This document shows, in pieces, positions 6,758-38,637 of a DNA stretch of 64,000 nucleotides. The position numbers were made by a program, and so were the translations under genes. A model generated the notes under the pieces. The model did no database searches. It was not told the origin of the DNA and saw only the letters and a list, made by a program, of their open reading frames with translations. Every line of letters begins with the position of its first letter. Positions within the stretch are counted from its first letter, which is position 1. Source of the stretch: Mizuhopecten yessoensis (taxonomy: Eukaryota); NCBI RefSeq assembly GCF_002113885.1, contig NW_018407282.1:1019469-1083468 (forward strand). The letters are read 5' to 3'.

Positions 6758-6785
<28 letters not shown>
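6758..6785. repeat. (AC)n microsatellite
   Basis: Direct read of an ACAC run. Confidence 0.9.
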
Positions 6786-7164
6786 CTCCCCTCTACAAGA
6801 CGACCCACCAATTACATGTGCGTGTAATGTAAATGTGTGGTGAACCTGCAGTCAGTAAATATTATAAGGACTTGTGTAAGTCTCTGTGCTTTCAAAAATC
6901 ACCCGAAGTCTATTTTTAGACATGGAACTACACAGACCGACCCACAGTGGTAATTCCCCACAGTAGTGACAGTTTCATACATACGTCATATATGCATGTC
7001 ATTGTTGTGAGTTTGTTAAACCAGTCGTCTGCATGTAGCCTGGAGTATCGTCATCTTTTACATAATTCCCGTTAATAAGTAGCTGAGAGCACATAGTCAC
7101 GGCACGCGTTATCGTTTCATCTATCTAAAAATAGAATAGTTCGCGGAATACTTCACTCATTACA

Positions 7165-7352
7165 GGGGTTTCCCCAAAACACGGAAGTCCCATATAAACA
7201 AAGCACAGTTAGAGCCAAACAAACAGTCAACACATCGACGTCAAACCAGGAGATTGAGAAATGAAGAAATCGACCAGTATGTTATGTCTGCCGATATTTC
7301 CCATATATTTTACCTCCTGCCAGAGCCCTCAACCGGTATCCGACGTCTTTTG
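7165..7352 (+). promoter_or_regulatory. Candidate TATA promoter with NF-kB/ETS sites and a short first exon
   Basis: GGGGTTTCCCC 7165-7175, CGGAAGTCCC 7182-7191, TATAAA 7193-7198, Inr-like CAGT 7224-7227, ATG 7261, donor TG|GTATGT at 7352/7353. Confidence 0.45.
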
Positions 7353-10336
7353 GTATGTATCGTTTTCTATCATTAAGTAATTCAAAGATAATGCTTATGT
7401 AATATGGTGTAATCATTTGCATAAGATGGCGGATATATATGTGTTCGTATTACTCAAGGCATATCGCTATATTAATTTTAGCGTAGCTTGAAACCTCATT
7501 CGGTTTTAACTTGTAACAAAACTGGTATTTGATATTGAATTTCATACATATGTGATTTTCAAATTGATTTAAGTCGAGATATATACAGTTAAATGGAAAA
7601 GTAAAGGCCTTGTCACGTGACAAAAATAATCGCCTTGCAGCAAGCCTCAGTCACGTGATATCAACAATCGTCTGGTCATGAAATGCCTTTTGAATGAGCT
7701 GTACATGTATGCTCGTCTGCTGCATATAACCGCACTACTCGATAGTGAAACTGACGTAATGCAATAGTACACAAACAAACAAACAAACTAGCTGAATATC
7801 TGGTATTTGTTCGGAACTGACGGACATTAATGTATATGATAGCAATGATTTAATTGTTCCACATACCAAAGCAATTCCACGGCATATTTATAGTCAGCCC
7901 CATTACTTTTGTAAAAAAATAATTCCTAATTGTTTAATTTGTGACATGGAATTTCGTTTTGTACAAGTACAACTGGTTTGTGAGTGTCAACAGCCGTCTT
8001 ATCAGGGAGAAATATGACCCTTGTTATCAACAGATAAAAGGTTACACTGCTATAATAACACGATAACACATTACGTCATGGCTTCCTCGTCTATTGTTAC
8101 AACAGAATTAACTAGTTAAAATTCAGACATCCACCTATTGCTTTCGGGTATTTTAAGGTTTCAGTAAGGGGAGCTTTTACGGAAAACAAACCAATAAGCG
8201 TTCTTCAAACACGCATTTGTCTATATTGCTGTTTGTGAATAAATGTCACCAAAACATCTAAAGTCTTTAAGGAGAGGTTTTACACTGGAAAACGTACCCA
8301 TGTGTAATGTCGCCAGTCATGGTCCATTACAACAGTAATAAGATCTGTGTGAGACAGTTGGCATGTATTTTAATTAACTGCTCTCGTGTCAAGGCTTATC
8401 AGCCCAGGCCCTGCTCATGGATATTACACAGGTGTATACTAACCCTGTAACTGTATCATAGGGCACCATAGCCATGTAGCAATACATATGTAGGTGTAAA
8501 TACTGTATTCGGAGTCTGTCATTATTTTGATTACGGCCACAACGCGTACGTAACACCATATATCTCCTGAATTTCACCAATGTCCATAGATTAATTTTCA
8601 ACCAAGGGTAGTTTGTGAGGCTTATGAAACACATATACACATGGGAGGCCATACTTAAGAAATAGGGATGCAAGTGCAATACATAACTAGAATTGTAGAC
8701 CGAGTAATCTGTCTGAACAATAATTCTGGTCGGGATGGTTCATTTTAGACCATCGATATCATGAACATATTTCTGTGGTAGATTATTCCTTATAAAATCA
8801 AAACAACGGAAGGCCATGAGCAAGCACAGAATATCAACATAGTATATACCTATACATTTCCAGCACGAAATGTCATACTCGACTTACTGTATTTATAACA
8901 TACCAGAAAATATGTAACAAAGGGTCTTTGTGTAACCGACGATCCTACCAAGATCAGGACATAGTTTACTCCATATTGTCACTGTTTCAATTGTATTTAG
9001 ATAATATGACCTAATAAAAGCAATAATTGTACTGTAGGGTACCCGTACCACTATCAAAACTGTGACTATATACGCATTGTAAGCTTTATTTACCAGCTTG
9101 TATCATAGTCTGCCTGTTTTCCTTTAAAGTTGCATGTGAAATAAATCTCAATACCCAGTTAAAGGTGGAGCTTAGCTGTCCAATAGCTTACCATACTCCG
9201 GCGGAAGTTGTTGTACACCAATAGTGTACACTAACTTCCCAAATTGGATGTTAATAATACTGCGATTTACTGTTCCTGTGCAGTATATATCGTATATATA
9301 GAGAGAGGTCTAACTCTATGCAGTAATTATGAAGAAAAACATCTCTGAACACTTCAGTTTTTCTCCGTAGTTTTAATTGTAATAAAAAACGTCAACGCGT
9401 ACATTTTTGTGCATGAAATAGAAACATGACACAAGTCACCTGAAAGCGAAAGAATAGCTCATTTTTCTAACAAAAAGTCGAGCCCATTTTTATTTAAATG
9501 TAAATATTAAACTAAAGTGTGCGTCATTATCAATCCAATCACTGAAAATTCACCGAAAGCAGTTTCCTTAATACAATGTATATAACACAAAGTCATCAAA
9601 ATCGTCTTCTTATAAATAAAGGAAATCCGTGTCTTTCAAATTGATAGTGGAAATAGCTGACGGTGTTGTTTCAAAGCTCAAATGGAAATGATGAGAAACT
9701 ACATGTAAAGGCAGGAAGTGGGGTAAGGCTTGAACTTCTAATTGATTGTTGATTGTTTTTGGCGGGAAATGTACTCCTAATTGATTGCTGATTGTTTTTG
9801 GCGGGAAATGTACGCAGGAACACAAGACAATTCTGATTGGTTCTTAGAAATTTAGTGACAGTTGATTGACGGACCATAATACAAGCCATTTATTGTATGT
9901 TTCGGTGATTTACATTGCGATCCAGGTACTCGTACCATCCATAGGCGATTTATCACAATGTTTAAGTCGACATTATTGGGGTCTAGTGTCGACCACTACA
10001 ACTTAAAATACTCCTTTATTCGAGGCGGCCGTTCATCGGGGCCGCGGGTACTTCTTTCTCTGCTTGGCGACTAGGTGCCAGCGATTGTGATATATAGACG
10101 CATGGAAATGGCTAAAGACAAAAACATTGTCTATCTTCGTCAGTGGTGTGTCTATTTCTCTATCAAAATCGAAAGGATACATGAATACGCAGGTTCTTAG
10201 ACTAATCCGCCCCTTCTGTGGACCTTAGCAATACTGCTGTTTAAATGAGCAATTTGAAATCCGATATATATATTTATAAATATTTGCATCATTTTAAGAA
10301 AGGGAACACTATAGTAACAATGCTGTGATGATATAC

Positions 10337-10431
10337 AAACCGAAACCGAAAGTAGTAAGATTGAACATAACAAAACAGAAATAACGAAACCGAAAGTGAT
10401 ACGGTGCAATATTTATCCTGAAACCAAAAGT
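10337..10431 (+). promoter_or_regulatory. ISRE/IRF-binding element cluster upstream of HELZ2-like copy 1
   Basis: GAAACCGAAAGT at 10342-10353 and 10386-10397, and GAAACCAAAAGT at 10420-10431. The first two are conserved exactly in copy 2. Confidence 0.65.
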
Positions 10432-10797
10432 CTCCCAACCAGAATCCGCCACAATACTAATTTTCTGAAAGTATATTGATACAGTGTCGATCAATACGAA
10501 TTTCCTGAGTATTGTGTAATACCTATATTCTATAAATCAAGCTACGAGATACAGTGTGTACATGATTGTCAGTTTGAAGAATACCGCTGTAATGTTATAA
10601 GGTTATTTTTTTTCAAAATAACAGTTTCATAAATTTATAAACAATAACGGACCAAGAACCGAACCCAGTCACTCCTGCATTTATTGTGTTAACAGAAGAT
10701 TTACTATCTATCAATAAGTATTTGCTGATATCGATGACATGTATTAACATAACTCATCTACCAGTTTGATGATTTGTCCGATATCCCATAACTGGGC

Positions 10798-10980
10798 GGT
10801 TTCACTTCAAGGCCCCTGTGCTCACCCTGTCAAATGCCTTAGCAACTCCACCAAATATTCGGAACAGTCAAGCTATGTAAGCGTTATGGTTTACTTAGAC
10901 GGCAATAGCGAATGTGTCAGTTACTATTTATTTTAAAGTTGTATATCAATGACATCTTCGTTATATTCTCTTTTCTTCAG
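10798..10980 (+). promoter_or_regulatory. Proximal IRF site, putative short non-coding first exon and first intron of copy 1
   Basis: GGTTTCACTTC (reverse GAAGTGAAACC) at 10798-10808, donor GTAAGC at 10877, acceptor TTTTCTTCAG ending 10980. All are conserved in copy 2 (39003, 39083, 39182). Confidence 0.45.
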
Positions 10981-11061
10981 AATTCTCTTGAACCTGCATG
11001 TACCATGTAGTGTTTGACATCACAGCGTGAAGACTGAACTATTAAAGCGTATTCTGTTACC

Positions 11062-14000
11062 ATGGGGACTATCGGTGACACCGTACTTAAACAGTTTGGA
11101 CCTTCGGAAGAGGAACAACCGGAACAATCAACACCAATACAAGAAGAATACATTTCAGCTAGAGAAGATCGAGTACCAGCTGACGAAAATACCCAAGGCA
11201 CTGATATCGATTTGCCCATTCAGCACGATCCGAAAGGGGAACCTTCTGACAAGTCGAAGGCTGTGCCAACCGGATGTGAAATCATCTACCAACGTGACAA
11301 CTTTGAAGACTATGATTATGCAGCAGACGTTGATACTGTCAGTGATGATAGTGATGTCCAGGTACATCACAGCTCTCAAATCATTCAAACTAAAACCGGA
11401 AACGACAGCAGTGTCAGTAAAAATGCACACATAGATCTCAGCTCCTCTGACAACGAGGCAAGCATGTGTGGACGTTCCACTCCCGAAGACGACGTGGAAA
11501 TCGAGGAAGTAGATCTAATAAAAAGATCACACGAGTTGGATGAGCTTATTGCTGAAGCATACCTCATGATCACGGCAAAAGAACCTGAGAAAGCACGCAA
11601 AATTGTCACCGATATTTGCGGCCGACTTGACCAATCTTATAACAGTGACAAGGACTATCAGTATCTTGATTACAGTAACTACTTTCACGAATGTGCCGAA
11701 TTGTACCGACAGGTAAGTAATAATTCTCAAGCGACAGATCGTTAAAAATAAGACACCACACACATGCTATCCATAACATTCATAATAACCTTCAAATTAA
11801 TTATCTCCCTTTGGTCAGATTTTACAATTCTTATTTGAATGTTTTCTCGTTTTATTAAAATTGAGAGCTACACATGAAGCTTTTTTCTCATTCAAGGTTG
11901 CTGACCCAAGCAATGCCGTGAAGATGTTTTATAGAGGTAAGTAGTAATTAGTGGAGTGTAGGAAGGAATAAGAAGCATGTAGTAGTTAGAGATATGAAGT
12001 AATTAGAGGCATAAAGTAATTAGAGGTATGAAGTAATTAGAGATTTGAAGTTATTAGATGTATGTAGTAATTAGAGATTTGAAGTTATTAGATGTATGGA
12101 GTAGTTAGTGGTATGAAGTACATGTACTAAGCGTTATGTAGTGTTTAGAGGTATGAGGTAATTGGAGGTATGAAGTAATTAGAGGTATGAGGTAGTTGGA
12201 GGTATGTAGTAATTAGATGTATGAAGTATTTAGATGTATGTTGTAATTATATATTTGAAGTTATTAGATGTATGGAGTAATTGGAGGTAAGAGGTAGTTA
12301 GAGGTATGTAGTAATTAGAGGTGTGAGGAAATTGGAGGTATGTAGTAATTAGAGGTATGATGTAATTAGAGGTATGAAGTAATTAGAGGTATGAGGTAGT
12401 TAGAGGTATGTAGTAATTAGAGGTATGAGGTAAGTGGAGGTATGAAGTAATTAGAGGTATGTAGTAATTAAAGGTATGATATAATTAGAGGTATGAGGTA
12501 ATTGGAGGTATGAAGTAATTAGAGGTATGAGGTAATTAGAGGTATGAGGTAGTTAGAGGTATGAAGTAATTAGAGGTATGTATTAATTAGAGATATGAGA
12601 TAATTGGAGGTATGAAGTAATTAGAGGTATGAAGTAATTAGAGGTATGAAGTAATTAGAGGTATGAGGAGGTTAGAGATATGTAGTAATTAGAGGTATGA
12701 GGTATGTAGTAATTAGATGTACATGTATGCAGTAATTAGAGGTACATGTATGCAGTAATTTAAGGTATGAAGCAAGTAGAAATAATCTGAATTTAGAAGG
12801 ATGTAGTAATTAAGTTATTCTTGCGTTTGGAAAATCAGCAAAAAATGATGTTATTAAAATACTGATATTGAAATCATTAACATATCAAGATTATAGTGTA
12901 AGGAAAATCCCTATAATTTAAATATGTAAATACATTTACATATATGTAATTGAAAGACATTAATATTAAATATTTTGATTAAAGCATACTTTTCATTACT
13001 TTTAATGAACAAATTACTTTGTAAATTACTAATATAAGTTTTTAAATACGCGGACTACTGTAATCAGTATAGCCTACTTATTATACTATTTTCTGCAATA
13101 ACTTTTATAAGTTTAAACATTTCGCTCCGAATTCATCAGTATGGTGTTGTTGTTTTTTTATTAATTCCATGGTATCGCACGTGATATTGCGTCAGCTGTC
13201 TTGTCTTCGCCTACTGTCGTGTTGGGGATAATCTAACTATCCATATTATTATAGTATAAATATATATATATTGATATATATTTGCGTAGTACTCTTAATG
13301 CTTTAGCAAATTAGTCGAAGGCTTTTTATAGTACTTGTATGATAATCGTTCAAAAGACGATTAGTCATTGTGATTGTTGCGAGGAGGCAGTTGCTTATTA
13401 TTAGATGATTAATATAGTATCATATATATTATACAATTATGGACTTTTGTGCTGGTGAATTTACCAGCACAAAAGCCCATAACTATTTTATTATATGCTT
13501 CAACAATAAAATAAAACTAAACTAAAGGTTCTGTAAAATTTAGCCAGGTTTGAATACAACAGTTCATTATTGTAGCTTTCAAAGGTATCGTCTAGATTAT
13601 TTTTCTTAAGATAAGCATGGAGGACATGCACTGCGTGTCCAATGACCTTTTAACGTTAACAGCATCTTTATCCTCGAATAGTTTTGGTAATTTTCTGATG
13701 TAACGGAGGAGAAACGTTCGCCAGCAGCCATCTTCTAATGTCGTCTGACATATCGCGTTCCAGTCTAACTGCGCATGCGCTACGAAAGGTTCCGGGGAAT
13801 TTCCATACAGGCTATATTTAGAAATCGATATTCACCGGATAACCAGTCTACATGACTTTTTGAGGACTGGTCACGTGTATAGTATCCGACCAATGTGATT
13901 GCGAGAAATGTTCATGCATATAATAATAATAATTGTATAACGATATAACTATTAATTTATTTCAGGTGTCTTACACCAGGAAACTGTGATCGTTACACAC

Positions 14001-17000
14001 CACTTAATGATCGCTGCATTGCTTTGGGAAGAGCTTATAAATTCAACAGTATTATTACAAGTATGTTGGATTGTTTCATTTATCATCAATGCAAGTGGTT
14101 ACTTTCACATACATTTGACTATATCTAACGAACAAGTGAAACATTTTAATGTAACATAATTGTTTTCGTTACAGAAAAAAGCAAGATAAACAAAACCATA
14201 TCTCGAATTCAAAATCGATGAATCAGAGGCATGACATGAACAACAAAATTACACGGGGCCTCTGTATTCCCCGTAAACAACACAGAATAAGACTACGTGT
14301 TTCGGAGAAATACGCGTCAGCTGCTATATCGACAAAATACGTCACGATAAATCCAAATCAAACTAAAAAAAAAATATCAGATAAGAACTGAGATGCTGAC
14401 AAAGAAACCGTGAAGCACACTAATGAACATTAAAAGTCGAAGTTCATATGAAACAAGGAAATATTTCAGAACGATATCATGATGGCGACCATAGCTTTCT
14501 ATCAATAAGTATCAAACTGCATTTCCAAAGACTCTGTACTTTTATGTTTTTCCATCAGCAATTCATCTTCCATTCGACTTTCATCATGGCAGTCGTAATT
14601 CAATGATGCAATGTAATTTTCGAGATAATTGTTATCGTTAATTGGGATGATTACAATGTTAATTAATTAAATCTGAACGGCAAGGTATCAAACAATTAAA
14701 CATAGAGTTAATGAATAGAACACAACATGTAAATCTTAATTATAAAACGCCCACAACATACATTGTACATGGGTTTTGAATAAGACAGATGTATTTCTTT
14801 GTTATATAACAATACATACTAACTGTACAATCTTGAATACTGAAATATGTTAACGAGTTATTAATTAAAAGCATTCTGTTTATGTTATAAGGAGGTCTTA
14901 AGCATCGCACATGGGATACAGATCCTCGCAGACATCAAGCTAGAACAGTCGGGTGGAACAGCGGTCCAAGTGCCTTTGTGTATTTATAATGACCTTATGA
15001 TGACCTTCAAAACAATTCAGATACAGAACCCACGGTGCACTGGTGCAAAGGAAGGGAAACTTAAAGCGATGCTTCCGTGGCTAAGATGTCTCCTTACTAG
15101 TGTAAGTGTGGTCTTTTTACACTTTAACCGTTAATATTCACCTCTGGGATTAATACCTTCGAAATGTGGCGTATCATCACGACCACAATAATTTTATATA
15201 TAGCGAATTATGCAAATTAACCATTTGTTTAAACAATAATAAAACATGATGTTTTATTTCCATAGGGTGTATCACCTCACATCGTAACAGGTATATGTAA
15301 AGGAGGTAAGTACTCGTTGTTTGTTATGTTTAGACAATAAACGAAAACTTAGAAGGTTGATCAGATTTAAATGTAGACATTTGGCAGAATATATAAAAAC
15401 AGGTTGAAACAATTATATTATGATTACAAAATACTGTATCTAGATGTACAATGCCATTTATTTTTTATTGGTGTAATTAATTGGAAGGAGCCTGTCGGTC
15501 CATATAGCTGTTATATACAGTAACATTTTCAATTCTGTAGCAAACATGTAGATAAACCAATTTATTCCTGTTATGTCCTCTGTTACTGGGGTAAATACAT
15601 TAATTTAACATAAAATCTCCGTTTTTAGCATAAAGCATGACTTTTTAAAAAGCTAGACATGTTAAGCATTAAAGTACTTTTCATTTACACCACAAAATGT
15701 TATGAAATTGCACATCATCTTAAGTCCATGTATAAATCTCAATTAGTCTTTATTTTCCTATTGACAATCTGTAAAAAATACATCACTGATGAGGGTTAAC
15801 TATGAATTTCTAACGGCCTCGTCCATTTTGATTTGAGGTTTGTATGTCTCTCAAGAGCTATTAAAAGAGAAATTAAGCTCTGTGTGACCCATGTATATAA
15901 ATGAACTTTAGCAAATATGTCATTTCGTAGCTTTCAGTACGATCACTTAAGGGAATGACATGTTATAAGTGCGGTGAACTAATTCTATTGAGATATCTGA
16001 GAAATTTGAATTCCAACGTTTAATTTTGGTCTTCAAATATAACTTATCAGGTGATTGAAATTAAGATGAATAACGTTTTTCTACAAACATCTTGATCATG
16101 AAGCATTCCGCAGTAAGCTACAAAACATGCTAAGATAACGTTAGTTATTGTCTTTAGTCCTGAAGGAGTATCCTGACAACGCTTCAATCCTTGAAATATG
16201 GGCACGTGCTTTACTTGGTATGGGAAAACTTGATCTGGCGCTGAGGAAGACAGAATCTGCACTTCTTTATGTGAAGGTACTTTGGTCGTTGCGATTATTA
16301 AATATTATTCATTACGTCTTTGTGGCCCTGCAGGTAGGGCGTCAGAATTGTACCTGCTGCCCCCAATTGCATGATCGTAAGAGGCGACTAAATTTGGGAC
16401 CTTATTTATCTCTTCTCTCCTTTCTGATTAACTTTCTTTTTCCTAAAGTCTCCCTTGACAATGCCTCACTTTTGGCCATTTGTTGAGCGTTCGCCCCTGT
16501 GAGGAAGGCTTTGGGTTCTGTCCCCTGGCCGAGACATATCAAAGTCTTTAAAAATGGTAGTTTATACTCCTGCTTAACGCTCAGCAAATTAGGAGTGGGA
16601 CGACTGGTTCGCCTGTTGTCAGTATAATGTGGCCGGGTGGGGCGTCCTGCTGGGTGTCTTCGGCAGTATGTTTCAGTGAGGTAGCACTATAAATCCGGCA
16701 TCAGTTCCGCGCTATCACAAGGAGACAAACACGAACATATCGCAGCCTCCCAAAAAACACACATATACACTACACGCATGCATCTTGCCCACAGGGGAGG
16801 CCGTCCTTAAATGACCTTAGCTGTTAATAGGACGTTAAACAAAATAATCAAAAAAATCAAAAAAAATCATTACGTCTTTGTGTACTTAACCTTATTTTCA
16901 TGTTTCAAGTATGCAACAAACGTGCTCATTTTGATATAGATGTTTACAAACATTTAAAGTTAACATATGGGACTGGTACGTTTGAATTATCTCCGATAAT

Positions 17001-20000
17001 TTATTATTTCAATTCATTACTACTCATAAATTACTCGACGTGGTCAAAAACATTTGTTTTAAATTTTAACAGAATCCAAAGCAGAAATCTGAATTGGAAG
17101 AATTACAAAGGGATCTTACTGCAGGAGTTAGGACATCCATCAGAGCAGTAGATGACAGCTCGCCTATTATGTCGTGGATAGAAGGTAGCAATTACATGGA
17201 ACCTCATAGGGTAAGTTATTTTAGATCCAGTCATTAAATATCGTTACTGATCCTGGTCCTTATTTTATATGTTCATATGTCATTTAAATTTAATCTATCA
17301 TATTCATAATCTTTGTTTTTGATAAACCGTACATTTTATCTTACAGAACAGCCCCCAAGTTGAGAAATTAAAGGAAAATCATGTCAAGAAACCCCATCGT
17401 AGGCGTGAGTACAGCTTTATGAAACATTACATGATATTAGACCACGAATCAGAAATCAAGTGTGTTCTTGAAATCTTTTATATTATACTGTTGATGCATT
17501 GTTACAGCTTCGTTTTACATAGACAAACAAGGGTATTTTTTTTTAATTTCAGCCAAAGCTAGGAAATCGACATTGGCTACTTGTCTAGATTTTGCAAGTG
17601 AGGTTGACAAAAAGAAGGAAACAGCACGTTCAAGTTCAGCATCGCCATATTGGGATAGTCATATTAAGAAGAAACGCCGACGACGTAATACAGCTGGATC
17701 CGATGTATCATCGACTGGAAATGGAAAGAGCCTACAACAAGATTTGCTAGAAGAAAAAGTCTACATCGCAGGCTTGGGAGAAGGCGACGACCACTCAATA
17801 GAAAGCGATGAAGAATTTGACGTTTCAGAAATATTAAGATCGAGTATATTTGATTTGGACTTAGGAGACCCTGATGAAAGCTCCGATGGGGAATCCATAA
17901 GAAACGCTGATGTTGAATCAATGTTTGAACAAAGTATTGATGTCGACACAGAAAACGCTGAGGAAGGCATACAAGAATGCGAACAGCTCTTGATCATACA
18001 TGGAGCGGAGCTTTCTCCTAGATTCATTGCCAAATGTGCCTTTCAGGACAAAAAGAACTATTACACCAATAGCCTGTCGATTGACGAGCTCAAGGATTTG
18101 ACCAGAAAGGATCCAGGACGATTCAAGAAATGTACGCTAAAGATAGAATCAGCTCACAAGGCTATATGTGGACTGTTACAACCAGAAGGTGATCTGAAGG
18201 AAATAGAGATCAGCGGCAGATCGAAATGCGGAAAAAACTTCATGGAAGATGAAGTTGTCGTCGAAATACTTAACAATGATCAAAAACAGTCCGATGTTAT
18301 ACCTCGTTTAAACAAAAAACTGAAGACTACTGGAGCAGAGACAAAATATGGAAAGGTTGTTGGTAGACTGAGTAGGAAACGATTTCGCGACATAGAACAC
18401 CCAGTGTTGGTTTGTGGACTGGATGAGCTTGAATACCATTTAATGCGACCGCTCGACAAAACCGTGCCTAAGTTACACATATTCAACAAGCATGTTGAGA
18501 ACAATTTCCAAGTCGAGGTTTACGATTATGACTCTTGTTCTTGTGATTTGAAATTCAGCAATGTTGTTAACATTAATCCTGCTCAAAAACACAGTTACGT
18601 ATTTCTTGTTGTATTCATACGCTGGGATGCAGTTTATCCTCTAGGAGCAGTGATCAAAGTCATGAGATCTGACGGAGGAATAAACAGTGGCTTGAAAATC
18701 CTAGAGTTGCAGCATCAAGTGCCAACAACCTACAACCATGATACGATTCAAAGTGTTCAAAGTATCATGAGCACAATGCCGGAAGAACCTGCTCCGATTC
18801 TAACAGAAGATAGAATAGACTTTTCGGAATCACTGTCCGTATTCACGATTGATCCGAAGGACTCGAAAGATCTTGATGATGGACTTAGCATCCAACGACT
18901 TTCAGACAATGTTTACGAGGTCGGAGTCCACATTGCAGACGTTACAAGCTATGTACACAAAGGAGACGCAATTGACGAAGAGGCGAAATCTAGGGCAACA
19001 ACATTCTATCCAGGACACGCAAAACCACCCTACCACATGTTGCCCGAACCACTAAGTCAAAATCTATGCAGTTTACTCCCAAACAAGAAGAAACTCGCTC
19101 TCTCTGTCTTTTTGTACTTTAGTGCTGACGGAGAGTTAATCCGTCAACGCACAAGCATAAAACAAACCGTAGTCAAATCGAGAAGACAGTTCAGCTACCA
19201 GGACGTTCAAGATATAATCCTTGATTCAACGGTTGACGATGAAACAACCTCCTCTGATATCATTGATTTGTTTCGAATTGCAAAGGGATTGCGCTGGAGA
19301 AGACTAGGTGAATCGATGCATTCATTTCCAATAGAAGTGGATTTGCTGAACGGGAGGGAAAGTGAACGAATGTTCGACACTCTAGAAGCTCATTTCCTTG
19401 TTGAAGAATTTATGATATTAGCAAACATGACCGCTGCCTCGCTGGTGAGCTCAAGCTTTAGGGACTGCGCTCTTTTGAGATGCCAGAATGCTCCACCTCC
19501 TGAGAAAGTGAATCAATGGCTGAATGATTATCCAAGGATTGCTGATGTCATTTTGAAACTACAGAACATAAAGCCAACTCCACAACGACAACTTAAAATA
19601 GCTAACGCTCCAAAGGCAAGGTACAGAGTCGTTATTGAACTGCAAAAGTGGATTTGGTCTTGTTTAGAGCAGCATGTCAAAGATGGAAACTACAGGGATG
19701 CATGCAAACTGATCGGCAGTGATGAATTCCACCCCGAACAAGCAATCGCATGGAACGAATGGATATGTTTTCAGGAGCACGCCGAGTATAGATGTCTTGG
19801 CTCTATGAAAAACCGTAAGGAAAGGTTTCATTTCACACTCAATATTTCTCCGTACACACATTTCACGTCACCGATTCGACGATATGCAGATATAGTGACC
19901 CATCGTCTTGTCCACGCTGCCCTTAACAAAAAAGAAGTACCCTATACGCGATGCGAAATTGAGGATATCTGTTACCACATCAATGAGGTTTCAAGAAGGG

Positions 20001-23000
20001 CGAAACAGTACAGTAAGCAATGTAGAGCTCTGCATTATGGCCACGTTCTGCGACGTAACCCTGCCATGTTCAATGGCTTCATAGAAACAGTTTCCGATAA
20101 ATGTATCCAGCTCTGCATTCCAGGGATGCAAGGTCTACCACAAAACTGTAGGGAATTGCAACTCAACCTACTTGGTGTGTCACGGAAACCAGACATAATA
20201 AAAGACCGAGATGACGATAGACCATTTGACATTCTGACTTTAGCCTGGCAAAAGCGCCTTTACTCCCATAGAGGCTATGCTCCATCCACGAGAGGTCTTG
20301 AGAACATTCGGGTTGATCCACACCAGAGAGCCATCTTTCAACAATATTTACGTTGGCAGGATCTTTTGAAGGTTTTGGTTCACGGAGACACTAAATTGCT
20401 GAAGAAGAACTTCGCTGTAAACGCTGACTATCAGGAAGGAGATCAACTGAAATCATATGTTCCGGCATGCACATCGACGGTCGTTGACGTAAGTTCAGAA
20501 GTCAGGCAGGGGGCCATAACAAAGCATTTCTGTGAGTTCAGCATGTCCTTCAACCATGCTCAGATTCTGTTAGTGCAGATTGGTGCAGAGCCACAGAAGG
20601 GAGTACTTGTACCAACTCCTCAGATCTTAGAACTTACAAATAATTTCATACTGTGTTTACAGCACACAAGTGACCCTGTTAAATACTTGGCTAAGTATGC
20701 GACAAGAAAAGCCCACACTGAAAACTACAAATCCATAGCCGAATATCTCGAAGTGTGGCTGTCGCTGATACGCATGGAAGCTGCAACAATGGCGGGGCAC
20801 GATGACGCAATCACCGTCAATGATCTCCCTGTTAAACTGAATGAAAAAGATGGTACTTTTTCAATGACCATGGATTTTTGTGAAGACAGAAACATTGAAT
20901 TCAGTAGCATGTCAATGGAATTCATTTTACATGGAAACGAAGATGACGAAAATAGCGATGAAACAAAGTACGTTCCTAGTTCAGACTTCCTTTGTCTGAA
21001 GTGTCGTTACGAGGTAGATGACGTCATCTACAAAGGTCTCAAAGGAAGCCCAGGAGAACAAAGGATATGGCTAGCGCACGGACAGGTGGATAAAATAAAG
21101 AAAATGAAGAAAATGGGAAGAATTGAAGTACACTTTTTGCTTCATCCTTCCAGCCAGAGCCTACCACCACAACTGTTGAACAGTGAGAGGAAACCTAAAT
21201 GTAGCGTTGAGATCATGGCGAAACCAGAATCCAATAGGTCTGTTCATGTTTATTTTATACAGAATTACTTGAATATTCAATTGATTTTATTATAACCTTC
21301 ATGCTTAACTTTGCAAGAGTTCCGAATTTCATTGAAATAATTGTTACAAAAAAAATATCACGGTGTTTTATATTCAGAATCAAATTAACTGAAAATCGAT
21401 GTAACGCGATTCGAAAAAAACCCACATTATGACATTGTTTTCCATTAAATATTCCTAGGAGAACGGAGGCTGCCTTACTTTGTTTGGATAAGGCAAACGG
21501 TTTGGCGCAGAAGATAGCTATGCGATTCAAGATTCCAGCCCTAGGTTTGTAGTGCACAGTTTTTATTTCATTATATCTCGCGACCATGATCGTAATTGCA
21601 GTATCAGATTTTGACAGTTTCATTCTTGTAGTATGATACGTTCCTAACGTAATTCTCAGGATTAGATTTATGATATAATGCGTGCTATACTAATTCACAG
21701 TTAACTATTTGTTTCATGATTTTTCTAATTCTCAGTCTCATGTTGTAATATGACTTTCTTAATAAATAACTAATTTTATGTTTCATATGCTCTTATAGCA
21801 ATACTTAGTTCTATGTTTGCGACATGTATACCAATTCCAGCTAAGTGGCTGTACAACCATTCACTCTTTAACTATCTCTTAGCCTTATGTTTATGATATT
21901 AAGAGCTCATGTGCTAAGTATTTTTTGAAGTTTATAGTAATAATTATCATTTATAAACACATATTAGTGACAAAAGAAATACTTACTACAGTAAATAAGA
22001 CAGGAATCTCAATTTTTGATTTCATTTTGCATTTTATTATCGTGAAGCTGTCTTTTAGTAGTAGGCATTTATATTCTTTTAAAAAACCCGCTGTGATTAT
22101 ATTTCAATCTCAAACTGTTTTTATTTTCAAGTAAGAGCATATCTTTGATACATCATTTAAACAAAATACATTGAAAAAAATCTTTCTTGAGAATTTATAA
22201 CTAAAAGAAGAAGAAAAAAGGTGTTCCTCGTGTAAAAAAGCAATGGAGCTAGACAAGGATTCAAACCGTTAACGACACCCAATTGATATACTGTCGCCCT
22301 AACCAACTCGGATTCCTGTTCAGCGGTAGTAAACTGCCCCGATGGCGGAAGGTTACTTAAGAAGGTTCGGTTTCAAAGAAAGAATACAGTGTATTCTCTA
22401 AAGTTTCGCCTGCAATGCCACAGACAAACATTTCTGACCTAACTTTGCAGCAGATTATCTCATGTTCTTAATGCAAAACATTTACTTGCAGACAAAAACC
22501 ACTTGGCGTTAGCGAGAAGAATGGAGGCAGAAGTTGACGTAGTGGGCCTAGCCCGGAACAACACCAAGCAATATCAGGCTATACAACAGGCCCTTACCAA
22601 TAGATTTACTCTAATTCAAGGTCCTCCAGGTAAGGAGATTTCTGCAGACATTAGCATATACATGATGATGTAGAACATAGAATTTGCGTTTACTCTTCCC
22701 AAGCTCCTTCGCGGTTCACTTCTTCTTTTGTGTCTTTATGATTGGATTTCTGTTGCTCCAGGTCCCGCTGTTAACTTTTCATATGAGTTTAGATTTACCT
22801 ATACTTTTATGCTAGGTATATTGCTGTCTAATTCGTGTAACTGTTTTATAATATTGATTCGATTACATGTTTGTATCAATGAATTTTAGGATAAACGCCA
22901 AATGTTATCTACGGAGAAAATATCATTATTATCATTATCATCATTTAGATGAACATTTTCAGACTGTAAGTGCACCATCTTACTGTAACTAACATTTGAT

Positions 23001-26000
23001 TATTCTTGTCATTACGAATTCATTAATATGTTTTGTTAATTTTAGGAACCGGAAAAACTTTCACTGGAATGAAACTGTTGTATCTGTTTACCAAACTGAA
23101 CAGAGTGTGGCATCAAGAAGGCAACCCATTAAAGCAAGTTGTCTATTGTGGGCCTTCGAACAAGTCGGTTGACCTTGTTGCAAGTAGGTTTTTTATGAGA
23201 ATATGTTAATTATTGTACTTGGACCATAGGATTTCAGATTGCGGATGTCTGTTTAAATACTGTTTCAAGATCATAAAAAAAGTTATTAAGATAGAGTTCA
23301 TCATTAAATTTAGTTTGCCAAAAAAAAGTAAAGCTTCAGAAACATCAATAAACGGAATGATTTAATCAACCTTGCTGAGTAAATGACTGAAGGATCAGTT
23401 ACATGTTATTGTTCGGTATATATTTTATTCGTTTAAAAACCAATGTATATTATATGTTGCAGGGTGGACAAAGAAAAAACTTGGCGAGCATGCACCAAGA
23501 ATGGTCAGAATGTATGGCTCTTCCCATGAATGTATGGACTTCCCCATTCCTGGAAAGTTATACTCTCATAAATCTCGCAGAGCTAAAAACCGGCCTGATG
23601 AAGATCTTCAGGACATCGCTTTACATCGTCTGATTCGGCAAGAGGGAAAACCTCATGCTGATGAGATCTTGGAATTTGACAAATATTTTCAACAGTTCCA
23701 CAACTGCCCGTCAATATCAGACCACGATTTGGCGGAAACGTTTAAGAACAAACTGAAAGACTACAACTCTCTTTTGAGTAAGGCAGGACAAGAAGAACTT
23801 CAACACTATGATGTCATATTTTGTACAACCGCTATGACTACTAACCCCAAATTCATCCGTGGCACGAAAGACAAGATTTTTCAATGTATTATAGACGAGA
23901 ATGGAATGTGCACCGAACCAGAAAGTCTTGCTACAATCATCGCCACAAAAGCGGAACAAGTCGTTTTGATTGGAGACCACAAACAACTCCGACCTGTGGT
24001 CATGTGTCAGCACGCAGCAAGACTCGGGCTGGAGAAGTCTCTCTTTGAACGATATTCAGAGAAAGCTGTATTTCTGTCGACACAATATCGAATGGTACGA
24101 AATAAATAGTTTTAATCATCCTGTTATCCATTGACGTTACGACATATACTAGGCACTATTTTGAAAATGTGTGGTTAACTCAGTGACTTTGAAATAACTC
24201 GGCTAACGTAAATTTATTTCTGTTTGTACATTAGAAACGTGGGTTATCACCTAAAGAACTATTGTATCTTCTCAATATATCAAATATATTCCTGGCTATA
24301 TTTACGACACTTACTAAGATTATTCATCCTTCCCTTAAAATTCCATTATTAATTGAATATTTAAATATCTACCCTTGAATGAAATCGTATTTACTGTTCA
24401 CATTATGTTTCAGAATCCACGGATTTGCGATTTTGTGTCAGCAGAGTTTTACAACGACAAGCTTGACACTGCTCCGTCTCGTGCATGGAAGGAGGAAACA
24501 CCCCTTAGCATCTGGAAGTACCCTGATGTGCCTCACATCTTCTGCCACGTGGAAGGGGAAGAGGAATATTTAACAGTTTCTACAGAGGAGGGAAACGAGC
24601 ACTCGTGCAGTAACAAAGCGGAGGTTGAGAAAGTGGTGAGTTTACCTGTTTTTGCTAGGTCTATTACACAGTTGCTGATTCTTTTTAATGATATCGATGT
24701 CCATTTCATGTAGCAGTGACCCAAACATAGAACAACTTAATATCTGCTTATAAGTTGCTGATAGTGCTTCAGTTAATTACAAAACTTTGTTCAATAATTA
24801 CTTTTAAAACATTTCAAACATAGAAAATGCAATTTAATGTAATACATTTATGTATCAACATGTTTGATATCGTAGATGCAAGTTTTCCGGCGCATGTTGA
24901 AAACAGAAGGAGTGAACCCTCGGTACATCAACATTATATCACAGTATAACGCCCAGTGTCATGCCATTAAGACGGCGTTGGTTGACTCTGGGTATATCAA
25001 CTGTAACGTCAACACTGTCGTCGCCAGTCAGGGTAAATACTGTTCTTCTTTTATACGTCATATATGTAAAAACATGCAAACACGAAAACTGATGGTAACT
25101 CATTTCAATAAATGCCCGCATATCATCGATTTGAATTTGCTTACATTTATTTAATTTATAACTACTGTAGATTAATGTTACCAAATTAGATTCTCTATAT
25201 GTCCATAAACTATGTCCATCAATATACCCAATTCCTTAATTTGTTACAAGTGTGACGTGATGTTAATTTTTTTCAATAATGTTCGTATAGCCCTCATACT
25301 CCATTAAACATGTAAACATCATTTTCATTTCAGTGTGTGTGCGTGTGTGTTTTCTTTTTTTGATAAAAAAGATATCTGTATTTATATCCTGCTGGTACTT
25401 TTAGGTGGAGAATGGGACTATGTCATTTTCAGTACCACAAGATCCCTTCCAGACTACAAGATTGAACCGAAACCGACCCTTGGCTGGTGTAAACAGAACC
25501 TTGGCTTCATCACAGATGAGCACCAGATCGACGTTGCCCTATCCAGGGCTCGTAAAGGCCTTGTCATTATAGGTAGGTAATAAATGTTTGTGAATCAATG
25601 TATGTAAAGGATACACAAAATGTTTATTGTATCCGATTGAATTACTATGGAAATACAGTAAAAGACAATTGAAGAAGGAAAATCTTTATTGAAAAATAGT
25701 TCATTTTTGTAGCACAGTGACATATTTTTTATTGTTTCAAAAAGTAAAAAATAATAATTCGTATTATGATAAAAGAAATTATTGTGTTTTATCAAAAGAA
25801 TGTATATCAATATATATATATATGTAACAAGGTTTTGTTCTTCATGAATATGAAGCATCTTAAATACATGCATGTACACTTGTAAATATAAAAAATCAAA
25901 CTGAAAATAGTCTGACTGAGAAAACGTGTACAATTTTCACGACAGCTTTGTCACTTGTCATTCAATTTTTTCCGTCAAATATGTATTTGCATATGGGTGA

Positions 26001-26208
26001 TATAACTTCTTTTTTAGGAAACGAAAACCTGCTGCAATGTGACAGAGTCTGGGAACGCCTTCTGGATCACTATAGGAAAAGGGGATGTATTGTGGACGCC
26101 AGAGAATTCCCGCCTCGCACCAAGACTCAGAACAGGAGGAGGAGGGGTGGTGGGACCGCTTCACGACAAACATCGGAGGAGTTTTATAAAGATACCGACC
26201 TAGGTTAA
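11062..26208 (+). CDS. HELZ2: HELZ2-like protein copy 1 (~2255 aa): acidic N-terminus, TPR-like region, RNB 3'-5' exoribonuclease, UPF1-like SF1 helicase
   Basis: Coding exons: 11062-11712, 11897-11936, 13966-14060, 14892-15101, 15266-15305, 16158-16276, 17073-17210, 17347-17404, 17553-21237, 21459-21544, 22492-22629, 23046-23183, 23463-24094, 24414-24635, 24876-25032, 25405-25572, 26018-26208. All introns GT-AG with matching phases; 6768 nt in total. RNB motifs: TIDPKDSKDLDDGLS, VGVHIADV, LVEEFMILAN, YTHFTSPIRRYAD. Helicase motifs: IQGPPGTGKT, CGPSNKSVD, IIDENGM, LIGDHKQL, QYRM, SQGGEWD, VALSRAR. The symbol denotes family likeness, not proven orthology. Confidence 0.9.
11932..12800 (+). repeat. 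17-bp minisatellite (TAGAGGTATG[A/T]AGTAAT)n in the intron after coding exon 2 of copy 1
   Basis: About 50 units, almost C-free on the + strand, starting at the splice donor. Confidence 0.9.
13429..13940. mobile_element. Copy-1-specific MITE-like insertion
   Basis: 12-bp inverted ends TTATACAATTAT/ATAATTGTATAA and an internal hairpin at 13439-13480. Absent at the equivalent site (~42640) of copy 2. Confidence 0.6.
16325..16866 (+). mobile_element. Composite SINE-like retroposon (structured head, degenerate tRNA region, Meta-like core, A-rich tail), copy-1-specific
   Basis: 16-bp TSD TCATTACGTCTTTGTG at 16309-16324 and 16867-16882; tail CAAAATAATCAAAAAAATCAAAAAAAA; empty site at ~44763 in copy 2. 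Confidence 0.85.
17553..21237 (+). CDS. HELZ2: 3.7-kb exon of copy 1 encoding basic NLS-like KKKRRRR, acidic tract and RNB domain
   Basis: Corresponds to ORF 17573-21295. Acceptor TTTCAG ends 17552; donor AG|GTCTGT at 21237; catalytic motif at 18851-18880. Confidence 0.92.
23463..24094 (+). CDS. HELZ2: Helicase exon (Walker B to QYRM) of copy 1
   Basis: ORF 23501-24109 contains IIDENGM, LIGDHKQLRP, GLEKSLFER and QYRM. Confidence 0.9.
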
Positions 26209-34322: not shown

Positions 34323-37300
34323 TTTATCACTTTATTACCTTTATTCGTTCGACTCATCAGTACAATACCACACCAGCACTATACAAATAGTACGAAGAGT
34401 GTAACCAGTTAAGTTAATTAGTTTCTTCTTTGATATATTTGGCTAAATGGACTAGTTCTATGTAAACAGTTAATGAATATGCTAGCCATTAGCACATGCC
34501 AACCGACGTCTACCCTATGACCTATCGACAGGTGTTTTGATGAGTCAATCAGATCTAATCTTTGAGTGGCACAGGTAGGTATATATGAACTTATTTATAG
34601 TACCTATGTTATCGTGGGACGATTTTCTTTATCATGTTTAGATTGTCTATCTAGTCTGGTTAGTAGGAATGCACTTACCCTTTTATAATGCGTATTTAGC
34701 TGTAAACATCAGTCTTTAAATATGTATTATGTAATATTAGCAGCACGTAAATCTGAATATTAAACACAGCTTTTATATATCGCTGGATACAATGTGTAAG
34801 TACTGTACATTATATCTTTTAATTATTAATAAAAAAAAAGTGCAAACACAAAAGAAAAACAAAAAATATAACATAGCCTGCACAAACTTTGAGGAAGAGA
34901 GTTCAGGTCATGTGAAACGGGAAGCTTTTCCTACATCCGTCTGGAAGTTTCCAATGAAACTAGGGTAATATGTAGGTCATCAACAGGGTAAACACTTTAC
35001 AATTACTTCCATCATAAATCAGGCTATAGTTACGAGTATACTATTTTCTCGGTGTAGATTCAATCTTCTCCGGTAGAGAGTGACGACTACCTAAATATTT
35101 TGTCAATGATGTACTGACACTTGGAACTAGCCTTAAGTAGCAAATCAAAGGTGACATGTTAACACAATAGGAATAGGACGGTAGAAAGATAGTGATCATG
35201 AAAATAAAGTTGTCACGTTTGTCGTTGAATTTGATAATTAAGAGTATTATCTCTTCTTGGTCGCGTCATTTTGTTTAGTTTTTTTATGTTTTATCCAGTC
35301 AACTAAGAGTTATTTAAGGGGCTGCAAGCGTGGAGATGTCCGGGCTCAGTGTTCGGGGCTGCCAGCGTTGGGAAGCCCAATTTTTAGCTTTACGTGTCTT
35401 ATCATACACTCTCCATAGTTTGTGATTATAGTGATATAGTAGTTGTTCAATATAATTTCTTTAAATGATTCCTTCATGCATTCATTGTTTTAAATCCCGA
35501 CATCCCGGATGCATGTCACTAAGCATGACCTTGTAAGTTATATACTTTTACCGATTGTCCAAAACTTGGACGTTAAAGTATCAAGACTTTAGAGGTTACG
35601 CATGGATAAGCAAGCCAAGCTATGACAAGTGTACTTAAATTTGAAATATTGGAAGACATCAATTATGAATATACTTGTCATGTGTTTTAATAAATGTTTT
35701 TATCTCTTTATATACATATGTATATTAATTAGTCACAAATTTGATATGTTTTTCTTGTGACAATTAGATAATCACATAAAAGAAAACAAAAATTCGACAC
35801 TCTCCTGTGCTATATCCATATGTAAGTAGGCACTACCTACTAATACGTATAGATAAATCAGTAAATATCATTCCAATTTCACATTCAGCATTATTAGAAC
35901 ACGGAATAAAACGTCAGCAGGACCTGCTGTAGGAGTTGTAAAGCTCGCTAACTAATTTTTAAAAAATCGAGGTATTTTCTTAATAATAATATCATAGAAA
36001 TCGATTGCAAATATCAGTATATGACGTACATTTATTTATTCTCTAGAAAATACCCGACTCTCGTGAAACGAAACCGGAATGGCATTTTTCCAAAATCTAG
36101 TATCGATTTATTTCAATTCGCTGACATAATACATGCTTGATAACAAATGTGTATATTGTGTAGGTATAAACGCATACCTAGTAGGAATAGATCACAAAGG
36201 ACATATACCTGTACATCCGTACATATACGTTGTAATGAAACTATAATGTGTTCGATTTCTTAACCCTTCGAATGGAGAGTGGTAAGTACAATGTACTTAT
36301 ATATAACTAGCATTACATTGTCACGAAAGTACATGTATTTCATATGTAATGCATTGAACTGCTTCATTTTTATAATGAGAATGACTGTGGGTATGTGCTG
36401 CCTAGCCGATATATGACGTAAAGTCACTTACTGTCATACAAATTAAGGAATGACCAAAGGCACCAGAACTTTTAACGGCATCGTCAGACAGAGAAAAAAA
36501 AATGCTCATTTCTTTAATTAAGTAAAACTTTTGACCAAATAAAGTTATAAGAATTTACAAAACAATGTATGTATTCTTGGTACAGAAGGCATTACAAAAC
36601 ATAAACATGGTCATTACTTCTTATTTAATTTGAAGAAGAAATATGTAACCTGTATAAAACTAATTTCTAAATCATGCTTAATATACTAAATCATATTGCT
36701 GATAGTAAACTCGAGAATATGATAAATTGTTCTAGTTAGCTTAACATAACACGATATCTTTTTTGGTAAATATGGTGTCACCAGTTAGTCACTAAGTCTA
36801 TAAAAAGACACGGAATTCCTACAAATATTTACTGTGTACATGTAGCTGTCACTAAACATTGCCATTTTAATTATACACACACATGTATGCCTCTCTACAT
36901 GTGTGTTGTTTTTCTTAAACAATACACTCGATGTGTATTTAAAGGCCAGTACAATTTCCTCTGTAGACGTTTTCCGAGAACTGAATATATCTATATATCA
37001 CTGCTTATGTAATAACGTATTTTAACTAGATGTTTTACGTGAACTTCCTGTTTTAGATTAGTCAATACACAGGATTTGTATTTAAAGGCCAGTGGAAATT
37101 ACCTCTGTGGTCGTTTTTTGAAAACACATCGTATCTATATATTACTACTTATGTAATGCTGTATATATAAATTAATGACTGGAAGTTTTGTCTGTACTTA
37201 CTATTTTAGATCAGTAAACAGTAGCGCAATATGGAGCTATAGCATCGCCCTAGAAGGTGAAGTGAAAAGCATTATATTATTCTTTTGGTGTTGTCTTTAT

Positions 37301-38513: not shown

Positions 38514-38637
38514 AAACCGAAACCGAAAGTAGTGATATTGAACATAATAACACAGAACTAACGAAACCGAAAGTGATACGGTGCAATATTTCTCCTGAAA
38601 CCAAATGTCAAACAACCCAAATCGTGAAAAAGTGAAA
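38514..38637 (+). promoter_or_regulatory. ISRE/IRF-binding element cluster upstream of HELZ2-like copy 2
   Basis: GAAACCGAAAGT at 38519-38530 and 38563-38574; an extra AAAAGTGAAA at 38628-38637; proximal GGTTTCACTTCC at 39003-39014. Confidence 0.65.

What the first reader, a model, noticed from the sequence alone, without database searches (positions are those of the whole stretch)
10337..10808. ISRE cluster conserved between paralogues despite diverged flanks
Seen: GAAACCGAAAGT occurs twice, 44 bp apart, in both copies (10342/10386 and 38519/38563), while the surrounding DNA has many substitutions and indels. A proximal GAAGTGAAACC on the minus strand is also kept. Copy 2 has a degraded third site (GAAACCAAATGT) but carries AAAAGTGAAA at 38628, which looks like binding-site turnover. 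Established: GAAANNGAAA is the IRF/ISGF3 consensus.
Basis: partly seen in the sequence, partly recalled or inferred. Interest (0 to 1): 0.7.

Follow-up and report, generated by a model that had tools for sequence, protein, structure and literature searches.

The report
Intronic IRF sites in scallop HELZ2
Two perfect copies of an interferon-response-type DNA word sit in the first intron of two duplicated scallop RNA-degrading helicase genes, and the same rare word lies just upstream of several other antiviral genes, so it likely acts as an IRF-bound immune enhancer in an animal with no known interferon.

Summary
The motifs are at the stated coordinates, and the GAAACCGAAAGT doublet is far beyond chance. 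The genes are two transcribed HELZ2-like paralogues of the Yesso scallop. The same 12-mer (224 copies in 988 Mb) lies within 3 kb upstream of 4 of 15 antiviral genes chosen before looking: viperin, two RIG-I-like receptors and an IRF1/2-like gene (p about 3e-10; 2e-4 at 30 times the rate). It is therefore likely a true IRF element. (1) In copy 1 the cluster is intronic: contigs splice an exon ending at 7352 onto 10981 in 6 of 6 runs, with no support for a start at 10840-10870. (2) Conservation is unremarkable: the copies are 87% identical and 7.8% of background 12-mer pairs are equally intact. (3) The proximal motif is inherited LINE reverse-transcriptase coding sequence (18 of 18 copies). (4) Turnover is untestable. 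Copy 2 is a chimera: the next paralogue's 5' region joined to copy 1's intron tail. Binding and induction are untested. New member of a known kind.

The parts
6931..7352 (+). Non-coding exon 1 of HELZ2-like copy 1 (5' end not defined; contigs reach 6931, 7082 and 7176); single-copy in the genome
   Evidence: Joint 7352->10981 in 4 of 4 runs; loose end maps to 7322-7351; one genome match
7140..7188 (+). GAS-like TTCGCGGAA (7140), kappaB-like GGGGTTTCCC (7165) and ETS-like CGGAAGT (7182) motifs near the copy-1 start region; no ISRE in 6400-7352. Consensus labels recalled; function untested
   Evidence: Regex scan
7353..10980 (+). Intron 1 of copy 1 (3,628 bp, GT..AG), which holds the ISRE cluster
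   Evidence: table 5
9442..9452 (+). Extra ISRE-type word GAAAGCGAAAG in intron 1, in a part without a counterpart in copy 2
10337..10353 (+). ISRE site 1, AAACCGAAACCGAAAGT (core 12-mer 10342-10353, with a partial third half-site)
10383..10397 (+). ISRE site 2, AACGAAACCGAAAGT (core 12-mer 10386-10397)
10420..10431 (+). Imperfect third site GAAACCAAAAGT (core G already missing)
10530..10536 (+). TATA-like CTATAAA, kept in copy 2 (38721); relevant only to the alternative-promoter rival
10636..10860 (-). Decayed LINE reverse-transcriptase fragment, about 73% identical to a young dispersed family
   Evidence: the family ORF hits RVT_1 at E 4e-33
10798..10808 (-). Proximal GAAGTGAAACC: LINE codons for ...RGLEVKL...; present in 18 of 18 LINE copies examined
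   Evidence: 25 exact 20-mer copies genome-wide
10877..10882 (+). Donor-like GTAAGC kept in both copies; no joint from it seen in the rows shown
10981..11712 (+). Exon 2 of copy 1, ATG at 11062
11062..26208 (+). HELZ2-like coding region, copy 1 (P0001, 2255 aa: OB_HELZ2, RNB, one SF1 helicase)
34358..37578 (+). Copy of the 5' region of the next paralogue (gene 4), now upstream of copy 2; holds TGAAACGAAACCGGAAT (36064) and a predicted exon-1 donor GTAAGT (36282)
   Evidence: 77-84% identity to window-equivalent 65493-68691; alignment
37578..37579 (.). Duplication junction: gene-4 5' region on the left, copy-1 intron 1 (from 8992) on the right
   Evidence: Adjacent HSPs
38514..38574 (+). ISRE doublet of copy 2 (core 12-mers at 38519 and 38563)
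38597..38637 (+). Third site GAAACCAAATGT (38597) and the 14-nt indel GTGAAAAAGTGAAA (38624-38637) holding AAAAGTGAAA
38845..39064 (-). LINE fragment in copy 2; it keeps the LINE's GGAAGTGAAAC (EICE-type GGAANNGAAA; label recalled), where copy 1 has TGAAGTGAAAC
39183..59941 (+). HELZ2-like copy 2 from exon 2 (ATG 39264; P0002, 2291 aa); present in RNA-type contigs
   Evidence: contigs with 43, 43 and 37 differences match copy 2's 43 and 38

Best explanation
The doublet is a pair of perfect ISRE-type words in intron 1 of a scallop HELZ2-like gene, and it likely works as an intronic enhancer bound by an IRF1/2-like factor that would raise transcription from the exon-1 promoter about 3 kb upstream during an antiviral response. 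Shown: the sites, their rarity, their intronic position in copy 1, the gene's identity, IRFs with an IRF2-like recognition helix, and the same word near viperin, two RLRs and an IRF gene. Inferred: viral RNA sensing switches on IRF1/2-like protein, IRF dimers bind both GAAA-CC-GAAA sites and act on the promoter, and HELZ2 (3'-5' exoribonuclease plus helicase) rises together with viperin, RIG-I, ADAR1 and IRF itself, without interferon or ISGF3. Copy 2 inherited the element passively in a 28.6-kb tandem duplication that joined it to the next paralogue's 5' region (junction shown; use of that promoter predicted).
For: Rarity. Location: joint 7352->10981 in 4 of 4 runs and the matching loose end in 3 of 3 contig runs; 6 distinct runs from 5 studies, 4 if the best holder's study is left out. 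Same word 132 bp before the viperin ATG, 124 bp before the DDX58 ATG and 951 bp before the IRF ATG, and 2.5 kb before the first detected CARD exon of a second RLR: 4 of 15 pre-chosen genes, p 2.9e-10, or 1.9e-4 at 30 times the rate, or 0.009 with the rate of the looser class GAAANYGAAASY. Viperin and DDX58 carry tripartite forms (GAAACCGAAAGTGAAA). CGAAACCGAAACT lies just 3' of the first Z-alpha exon of an ADAR1-like gene, a precedent for an intronic site. Of 63 hit loci, 19 have a second half-site word within 400 bp against 55 of 594 control tiles (p 1e-5). Older HELZ2 paralogues carry different ISREs: gene 4 at contig 1086691, gene 5 at 1124922 and 1125249. The IRF helix WKANFRCALNSL matches IRF2 at E 1e-19. 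Passages read: oyster IRF2 and IRF8 activate ISRE reporters and respond to poly(I:C) (PMC5557890); scallop C. farreri IRF1/2 bind ISRE (as cited in PMC13524488); Helz2 is up in OsHV-1-infected oyster (10.64898/2026.05.15.723513); human HELZ2 is interferon-induced (PMC10516660).
Against: No binding, chromatin or induction data for this locus. Paralogue conservation is weak (7.8% background). The forward test is not significant: recognisable core antiviral genes at 3 of 63 hit loci against 0 of 54 controls, p 0.15 (only the top 150 ORFs of each set were scanned). Eleven of the 15 pre-chosen genes lack the exact word within 3 kb (3 IRF, 3 RLR, 5 STING loci; several have N gaps or unlocated 5' ends). 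For two of three patterns, co-occurring sites near hits were not enriched (p 0.08 and 0.56). Paired sites are not enriched genome-wide (6 against 16 for the control). Five of 63 hits share one repeat context. At viperin and DDX58 the word is promoter-proximal, which favours the alternative-promoter rival.
Confidence: 0.65

Rival explanations
1. The doublet drives an inducible alternative promoter inside intron 1 (TATA-like 10530, donor 10877), used only after immune stimulation. This is the surviving form of the first reader's model.
For: TATA-like CTATAAA 130 bp past site 2 and GTAAGC at 10877 are kept in both copies. The word is about 130 bp before the ATG at viperin and DDX58. No run is known to be immune-stimulated, and contigs cannot show starts. 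Seven joint rows were not shown.
Against: Every joint or loose end seen at the 10981 acceptor comes from 7352. In X2, X6 and X8 the depth of bin 10808-11090 is fully accounted for by records starting at 10980 or later (my arithmetic). The predicted first exon would be mostly decayed LINE.
Confidence: 0.15
2. The doublet is a relic or neutral sequence, copied along in a recent duplication, with no present function in either copy.
For: Conservation is within background. Most genome hits have no recognisable antiviral neighbour. Copy 1's start region has its own GAS-, kappaB- and ETS-like motifs.
Against: Only 0.0014 such pairs are expected by chance, and it is not a local tandem repeat. It sits in an antiviral-class gene whose older paralogues carry unrelated ISRE clusters.
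Confidence: 0.12
3. IRFs bind the sites but set basal, haemocyte-type expression or repress it (IRF2-like repression, or IRF8 with an ETS partner), rather than induce it.
For: The scallop IRF pieces score best with IRF2, or nearly equally with IRF4/10. IRF2 competes with IRF1 on the same ISRE (passage in PMC13524488). Transcripts are present in runs not known to be stimulated. Copy 2 keeps an EICE-type word.
Against: Oyster IRF2- and IRF8-like proteins activate ISRE reporters and are induced by poly(I:C) (PMC5557890, passages). The word marks viperin and RIG-I.
Confidence: 0.08

Closest known systems
Vertebrate ISRE / IRF-E elements of interferon-stimulated genes (IRF1, IRF2, IRF8, IRF3 dimers; ISGF3)
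   Same: Matches the canonical GAAANNGAAA (PMC6954429, passage); occurs at viperin, RIG-I-like, IRF and ADAR1-like genes; tripartite forms as described for IRF1/2/8. CGAAACCGAAA resembles in-vitro IRF optima (recalled, no call).
   Different: Invertebrate host without a known interferon; the sites end GAAAGT and lack the GG, so they miss the detailed ISGF3 consensus WBVGGAAANNGAAACT; intronic here.
Mollusc IRF/IFN-like pathway (oyster CgIRF1/2/8, CgIFNLP; scallop CfIRF1/2)
   Same: Four IRF genes, RLRs, STING and STAT loci in this genome, as in oyster (four IRF-like genes; PMC5557890).
   Different: In the passages I read, the ISRE tests used mammalian reporters or the CgIFNLP promoter; native genomic sites at mollusc effector genes were not reported in my searches.
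Human HELZ2, an interferon-induced 3'-5' exoribonuclease/helicase
   Same: OB_HELZ2, RNB with an aspartate-rich DPKDSKDLDD motif, and an SF1 helicase.
   Different: Shorter form with one helicase and no zinc-finger Pfam hit; five tandem genes on this contig; regulation in scallop untested.
Transposon-derived interferon enhancers such as MER41 (recalled, no call)
   Same: The proximal word is carried by a retroelement inserted in an immune gene.
   Different: It is reverse-transcriptase coding sequence, a single half-site or EICE-type word, and no better kept than the rest of the LINE fragment; the doublet itself has no dispersed match.

Membership tests
ISRE / IRF-binding element | GAAANNGAAA consensus | tested here: met
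   Sites at 10342, 10386, 38519, 38563; consensus from PMC6954429
ISRE / IRF-binding element | Occurs above background | tested here: met
   4 against 0.01; P(2 or more in 472 bp) 4e-5 from 513 kb of controls. Pattern counts only; no JASPAR matrices were available
ISRE / IRF-binding element | A cognate IRF with a conserved recognition helix in the genome | tested here: met
   8 exon matches forming four IRF loci; IRF2 match at E 1e-19
ISRE / IRF-binding element | Recurs at antiviral genes | tested here: met
   4 of 15 pre-chosen genes; the forward test, 3 of 63 against 0 of 54, is not significant
ISRE / IRF-binding element | Bound by IRF and required for induction | not testable with these tools
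   Needs EMSA, CUT&Tag or reporters
ISRE / IRF-binding element | Conserved beyond neutral flanks | tested here: inconclusive
   7.8% of background pairs are equally intact; no orthologous DNA was available
Promoter-proximal ISRE | Transcription start within a few hundred bases | tested here: not met
   Copy-1 exon 1 ends at 7352, about 3 kb upstream; stimulated samples not identified; copy 2's first exon not observed
ISGF3 (STAT1-STAT2-IRF9) element | Detailed consensus WBVGGAAANNGAAACT | tested here: not met
   Sites read CGAAACCGAAAGT against the consensus
ISGF3 (STAT1-STAT2-IRF9) element | IRF9 and STAT2 present | tested here: inconclusive
   Pieces of 3 of 4 IRFs score best with IRF2 or near-equally with IRF4/10; STAT loci exist but were not classified
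Transposon-exapted IRF enhancer (proximal motif) | Motif derives from a transposable element | tested here: met
   18 of 18 LINE copies; RVT_1
Transposon-exapted IRF enhancer (proximal motif) | Motif kept better than the rest of the element | tested here: inconclusive
   The LINE fragment is 89% identical between copies; an intact 12-mer is seen at 22% of background positions
HELZ2 | OB + RNB + SF1 helicase | tested here: met
HELZ2 | Two helicase domains and zinc fingers as in human | tested here: not met
   One helicase and no zinc-finger hit in P0001 or P0002; human architecture from PMC10516660

The most novel reading that the evidence does not exclude
Scallops run an interferon-free IRF regulon written in essentially one high-affinity word, CGAAACCGAAAST. 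It links RIG-I-like receptors, viperin, ADAR1, cGAS-like receptors, HELZ2 and IRF1/2 itself in a feed-forward loop, so the roughly 70-220 genomic sites predict mollusc antiviral effectors, including unnamed ones. The HELZ2 duplication also shuffled this enhancer under a different promoter.
Probability: 0.5. Interest if true: 0.68.

Novelty: new member of a known kind. Interest (0 to 1): 0.5.

Why it matters
How invertebrates switch on ISG-like genes without interferon is open. In the passages I read, mollusc IRFs were tested on mammalian ISRE reporters or one oyster promoter. A native word shared by viperin, RIG-I, IRF, ADAR1 and HELZ2 gives exact probes for EMSA, reporters and CUT&Tag, and a short genome-wide list of candidate antiviral genes in a farmed shellfish. 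The element alone is an ordinary ISRE. The case also shows that identity between 87%-similar paralogues says little about function.

Tried and rejected
1. Paralogue conservation as evidence of selection: within background. 2. Tandem-duplication origin of the 44-bp spacing: rejected. 3. Assembly artefact (two alleles in tandem): rejected, because run X6 holds two copy-1 variants plus a copy-2 contig and the copies differ by 13%. 4. Genome-wide excess of paired sites: none (6 against 16). 5. Forward enrichment by Pfam: 150 of the 300 selected ORFs per set were scanned; not significant. 6. No run was on record as RNA among the holders; the one raw-read RNA run gave 1 laid read, so no start or strand data. 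Lack of cover at 10000-10900 is used only because contigs join across it. Small depths at 10242-10807 in X2 and X6 at 80% likeness are unexplained; X9 covers intron 1 broadly (pre-mRNA or DNA). 8. Paralogue 0's GAAAACGAAACC (contig 997107) lies in apparent coding sequence and was discounted; the C4037 cluster of hits lies in a dCMP-deaminase array, at the genes' 3' side. 9. No strict ISRE was found upstream of the C5561b paralogue (33% N); hits near C5561a and C1459 could not be tied to a 5' end. 10. STAT upstream regions were not examined. 11. A PDB search with a wrongly chosen stretch found nothing (repeated). 12. No earlier findings of this scan bore on the locus. 13. Seven paper searches showed no listing that describes native ISREs at scallop HELZ2 or a genome-wide mollusc ISRE survey; most subscription papers are not held, and no supplements were read (bioRxiv ones are closed), so gene lists there may bear on this.

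Full report
OBSERVATION. The window holds 4 copies of GAAACCGAAAGT against a mean of 0.01 in 100 shuffles, and 15 of GAAANNGAAA against 5.3. The genome (988 Mb) has 224 copies of the 12-mer (reversed control 150) and 71 of CGAAACCGAAAST (control 42). At that rate 0.0014 same-strand pairs within 5-60 bp are expected. The relaxed pair pattern finds 6 places (control 16), and the two built from this exact 12-mer are these two copies. The 44-bp units are not a tandem repeat (12 of 32 matches outside the motif, background 9.5).

THE GENES. The window carries a tandem duplication of about 28 kb. Each unit encodes OB_HELZ2, RNB and one SF1 helicase, with an intact-looking RNB aspartate motif and P-loop. 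The proteins are 100% and 92% matches to two NCBI 'helicase with zinc finger domain 2-like' proteins of Mizuhopecten yessoensis (P0001, P0002). Five such genes lie in a row on the contig. Both copies appear in RNA-type contigs: records with 43, 43 and 37 differences from copy 1 match copy 2's computed 43 and 38.

WHERE THE CLUSTER LIES. In one search, 3 of 3 contig runs had a loose end before 10980 that maps exactly to 7322-7351. In one search, 4 of 4 runs join 7352 to 10981 across a 3,628-bp GT..AG intron, with exon-1 contigs reaching 6931, 7082 and 7176. That is 6 distinct runs from 5 studies (4 without the best holder's study). The doublet is thus in intron 1 of copy 1, about 3 kb past exon 1 and 0.6 kb before exon 2. 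No support for a start at 10840-10870 was seen. Limits: RNA status is a guess, contigs cannot show starts, no run is known to be stimulated, 7 joint rows were hidden, and the one raw-read run laid 1 read. The copy-1 start region has GAS-, kappaB- and ETS-like words and no ISRE (labels recalled).

COPY 2 IS A CHIMERA. Exon 1 of copy 1 is single-copy. Window 34358-37578 matches the 5' region of the next paralogue (gene 4) at 77-84%, while 37579 onward matches copy 1's intron 1 from 8992. The duplicated unit therefore runs from intron 1 of gene 1 into the 5' region of gene 4. That region holds TGAAACGAAACCGAAATT in gene 4 and TGAAACGAAACCGGAAT at 36064 in the copy, about 200 bp before a shared GTAAGT donor. 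Use of this exon by copy 2 is predicted, not observed. The doublet was copied as intron, so these are not 'paralogous promoters'.

CONSERVATION. Non-coding identity between the copies is 87.1% over 11,875 bases. A 12-mer is intact at 22% of positions, and two 12-mers 44 bp apart at 817 of 10,446 (7.8%; 38 of 794 in intron 1). Windows of 120 bp as conserved as the cluster make up 19%. The flanks are 84-85% and the cluster 93%. This is at most suggestive.

PROXIMAL MOTIF AND TURNOVER. Bases 10636-10860 match dispersed genomic copies at about 73% (39 of the 41 match rows). These belong to a LINE whose ORF hits RVT_1 (E 4e-33). GAAGTGAAAC is part of its codons for RGLEVKL and is present in 18 of 18 copies examined; 25 genomic copies carry the exact 20-mer. 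It is inherited coding sequence, and co-option is possible but unsupported. The third site lacks the core G in both copies. AAAAGTGAAA lies in a 14-nt indel that cannot be polarised, has a 4-base spacer between its GAAA words and occurs 9 times in 513 kb of controls. Turnover is not established.

IS THE WORD FUNCTIONAL? I chose antiviral families before looking at their flanks: IRF (4 loci), viperin (1), RLR (5) and STING (5). The exact 12-mer lies within 3 kb upstream of the first detected coding exon in 4 of 15: viperin (132 bp before ATG), DDX58 (124 bp; first exon mapped with P0044), an IRF1/2-like gene (951 bp) and a second RLR (2.5 kb). The binomial p is 2.9e-10, 1.9e-4 at 30 times the rate, and 0.009 using the looser class rate. 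Eleven genes lack it, several with gaps or unlocated 5' ends; one TIR-STING has it 10 kb upstream and a second IRF has a one-mismatch version. Viperin and DDX58 have tripartite forms. From the other side, I fetched 63 of the 67 other CGAAACCGAAAST hits and 54 control loci. Core antiviral genes were recognised at 3 of 63 (IRF, ADAR1-like, DDX58) against 0 of 54 (p 0.15; top 150 ORFs of each set). Wider looks added a Mab-21/cGAS-like pair (weak Pfam hit for one of two), TRIM-like RING genes and HSP70-12-like genes. A second half-site word lies within 400 bp at 19 of 63 hits against 55 of 594 tiles (p 1e-5), but two other patterns were not enriched. Five hits share one repeat. Older HELZ2 paralogues carry unrelated ISREs: gene 4 as above, and gene 5 with GAAACTGAAAGTTAAAGTGAAACT and GAAAGTGAAAGTGAAACT about 6.5 kb before its RNB exon, its 5' end unmapped.

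MECHANISM. The scallop IRF next to one hit keeps the IRF2 recognition helix (E 1e-19); two others score near-equally with IRF2 and IRF4/10. Most likely (0.65) an IRF1/2-like factor binds both sites as an intronic enhancer and raises HELZ2 along with viperin, RIG-I, ADAR1 and IRF. Rivals: an inducible intronic promoter (0.15), a relic (0.12), basal or repressive IRF control (0.08). Binding, chromatin state and induction are untested.

LITERATURE. Passages read: PMC5557890 (oyster has four IRF-like genes and no IFN homologue; IRF2 and IRF8 activate mammalian ISRE reporters), PMC13524488 (cites scallop and oyster IRFs binding ISRE), 10.64898/2026.05.15.723513 (Helz2 up in OsHV-1-infected oyster), PMC10516660 (human HELZ2 an interferon-induced RNase, present in molluscs), PMC6954429 (ISRE and ISGF3 consensus). 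PMC9839780 was seen as a listing only. No supplements were read. Searches showed no listing on native scallop ISREs or a genome-wide mollusc survey.

VERDICT. A real ISRE-type doublet and a likely IRF enhancer, but intronic, not unusually conserved, not ISGF3-type, and with a LINE-derived proximal motif. New member of a known kind; interest 0.5, mostly for the testable IRF regulon it points to.

Noticed in passing
L168 (G000:C2205:11642-11659), L091 (C5207:144489-144506), L173 (C5207:150636): Tripartite ISREs about 130 bp before the viperin and DDX58 start codons, and another between the two divergent RLR genes.
   Followed up: yes
L057:4996: CGAAACCGAAACT just 3' of the first Z-alpha exon of an ADAR1-like gene, apparently in intron 1.
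   Followed up: partly
L051, L064, L080, L083, L104 (centre of each): A dispersed repeat family carries a perfect CGAAACCGAAAGT followed by a further half-site; it could spread IRF sites.
   Followed up: no
L049, L066, L063/L072, L065, L067/L068, L070/L071, L074/L075, L096, L162, L163, L197: The word lies near ParB-like genes, TRIM-like RING genes, a ubiquitin-like gene, an unnamed gene pair, Mab-21/cGAS-like genes, HSP70-12-like genes, a 3'-5' exonuclease, a Snf7 gene and ankyrin/Roc genes: candidate IRF targets.
   Followed up: partly
L188-L193 (G000:C4037:2.12-2.18 Mb): Tandem array of dCMP-deaminase-like genes with four copies of the 12-mer, three at the genes' 3' side.
   Followed up: partly
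window 7140-7243: GAS-, kappaB-, ETS- and CRE-like motifs cluster near the real start region of copy 1 (labels recalled).
   Followed up: partly
window 11932-12812 and 40116-42295: G-skewed minisatellite in intron 3 of both copies, much longer in copy 2.
   Followed up: no
window 13592-13831 (-) and L092:8329-8634: An antisense reading frame in a copy-1 intron has a close homologue near another ISRE hit; probably a repeat.
   Followed up: no
window 1-800: 3' end of a LINE-like ORF resembling the family that left the 10636-10860 fragment (judged by eye).
   Followed up: no
L208:5350 (G000:C3755:409350): Exact 12-mer beside a donor-like site 10 kb upstream of the first TIR exon of a TIR-STING gene.
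   Followed up: partly
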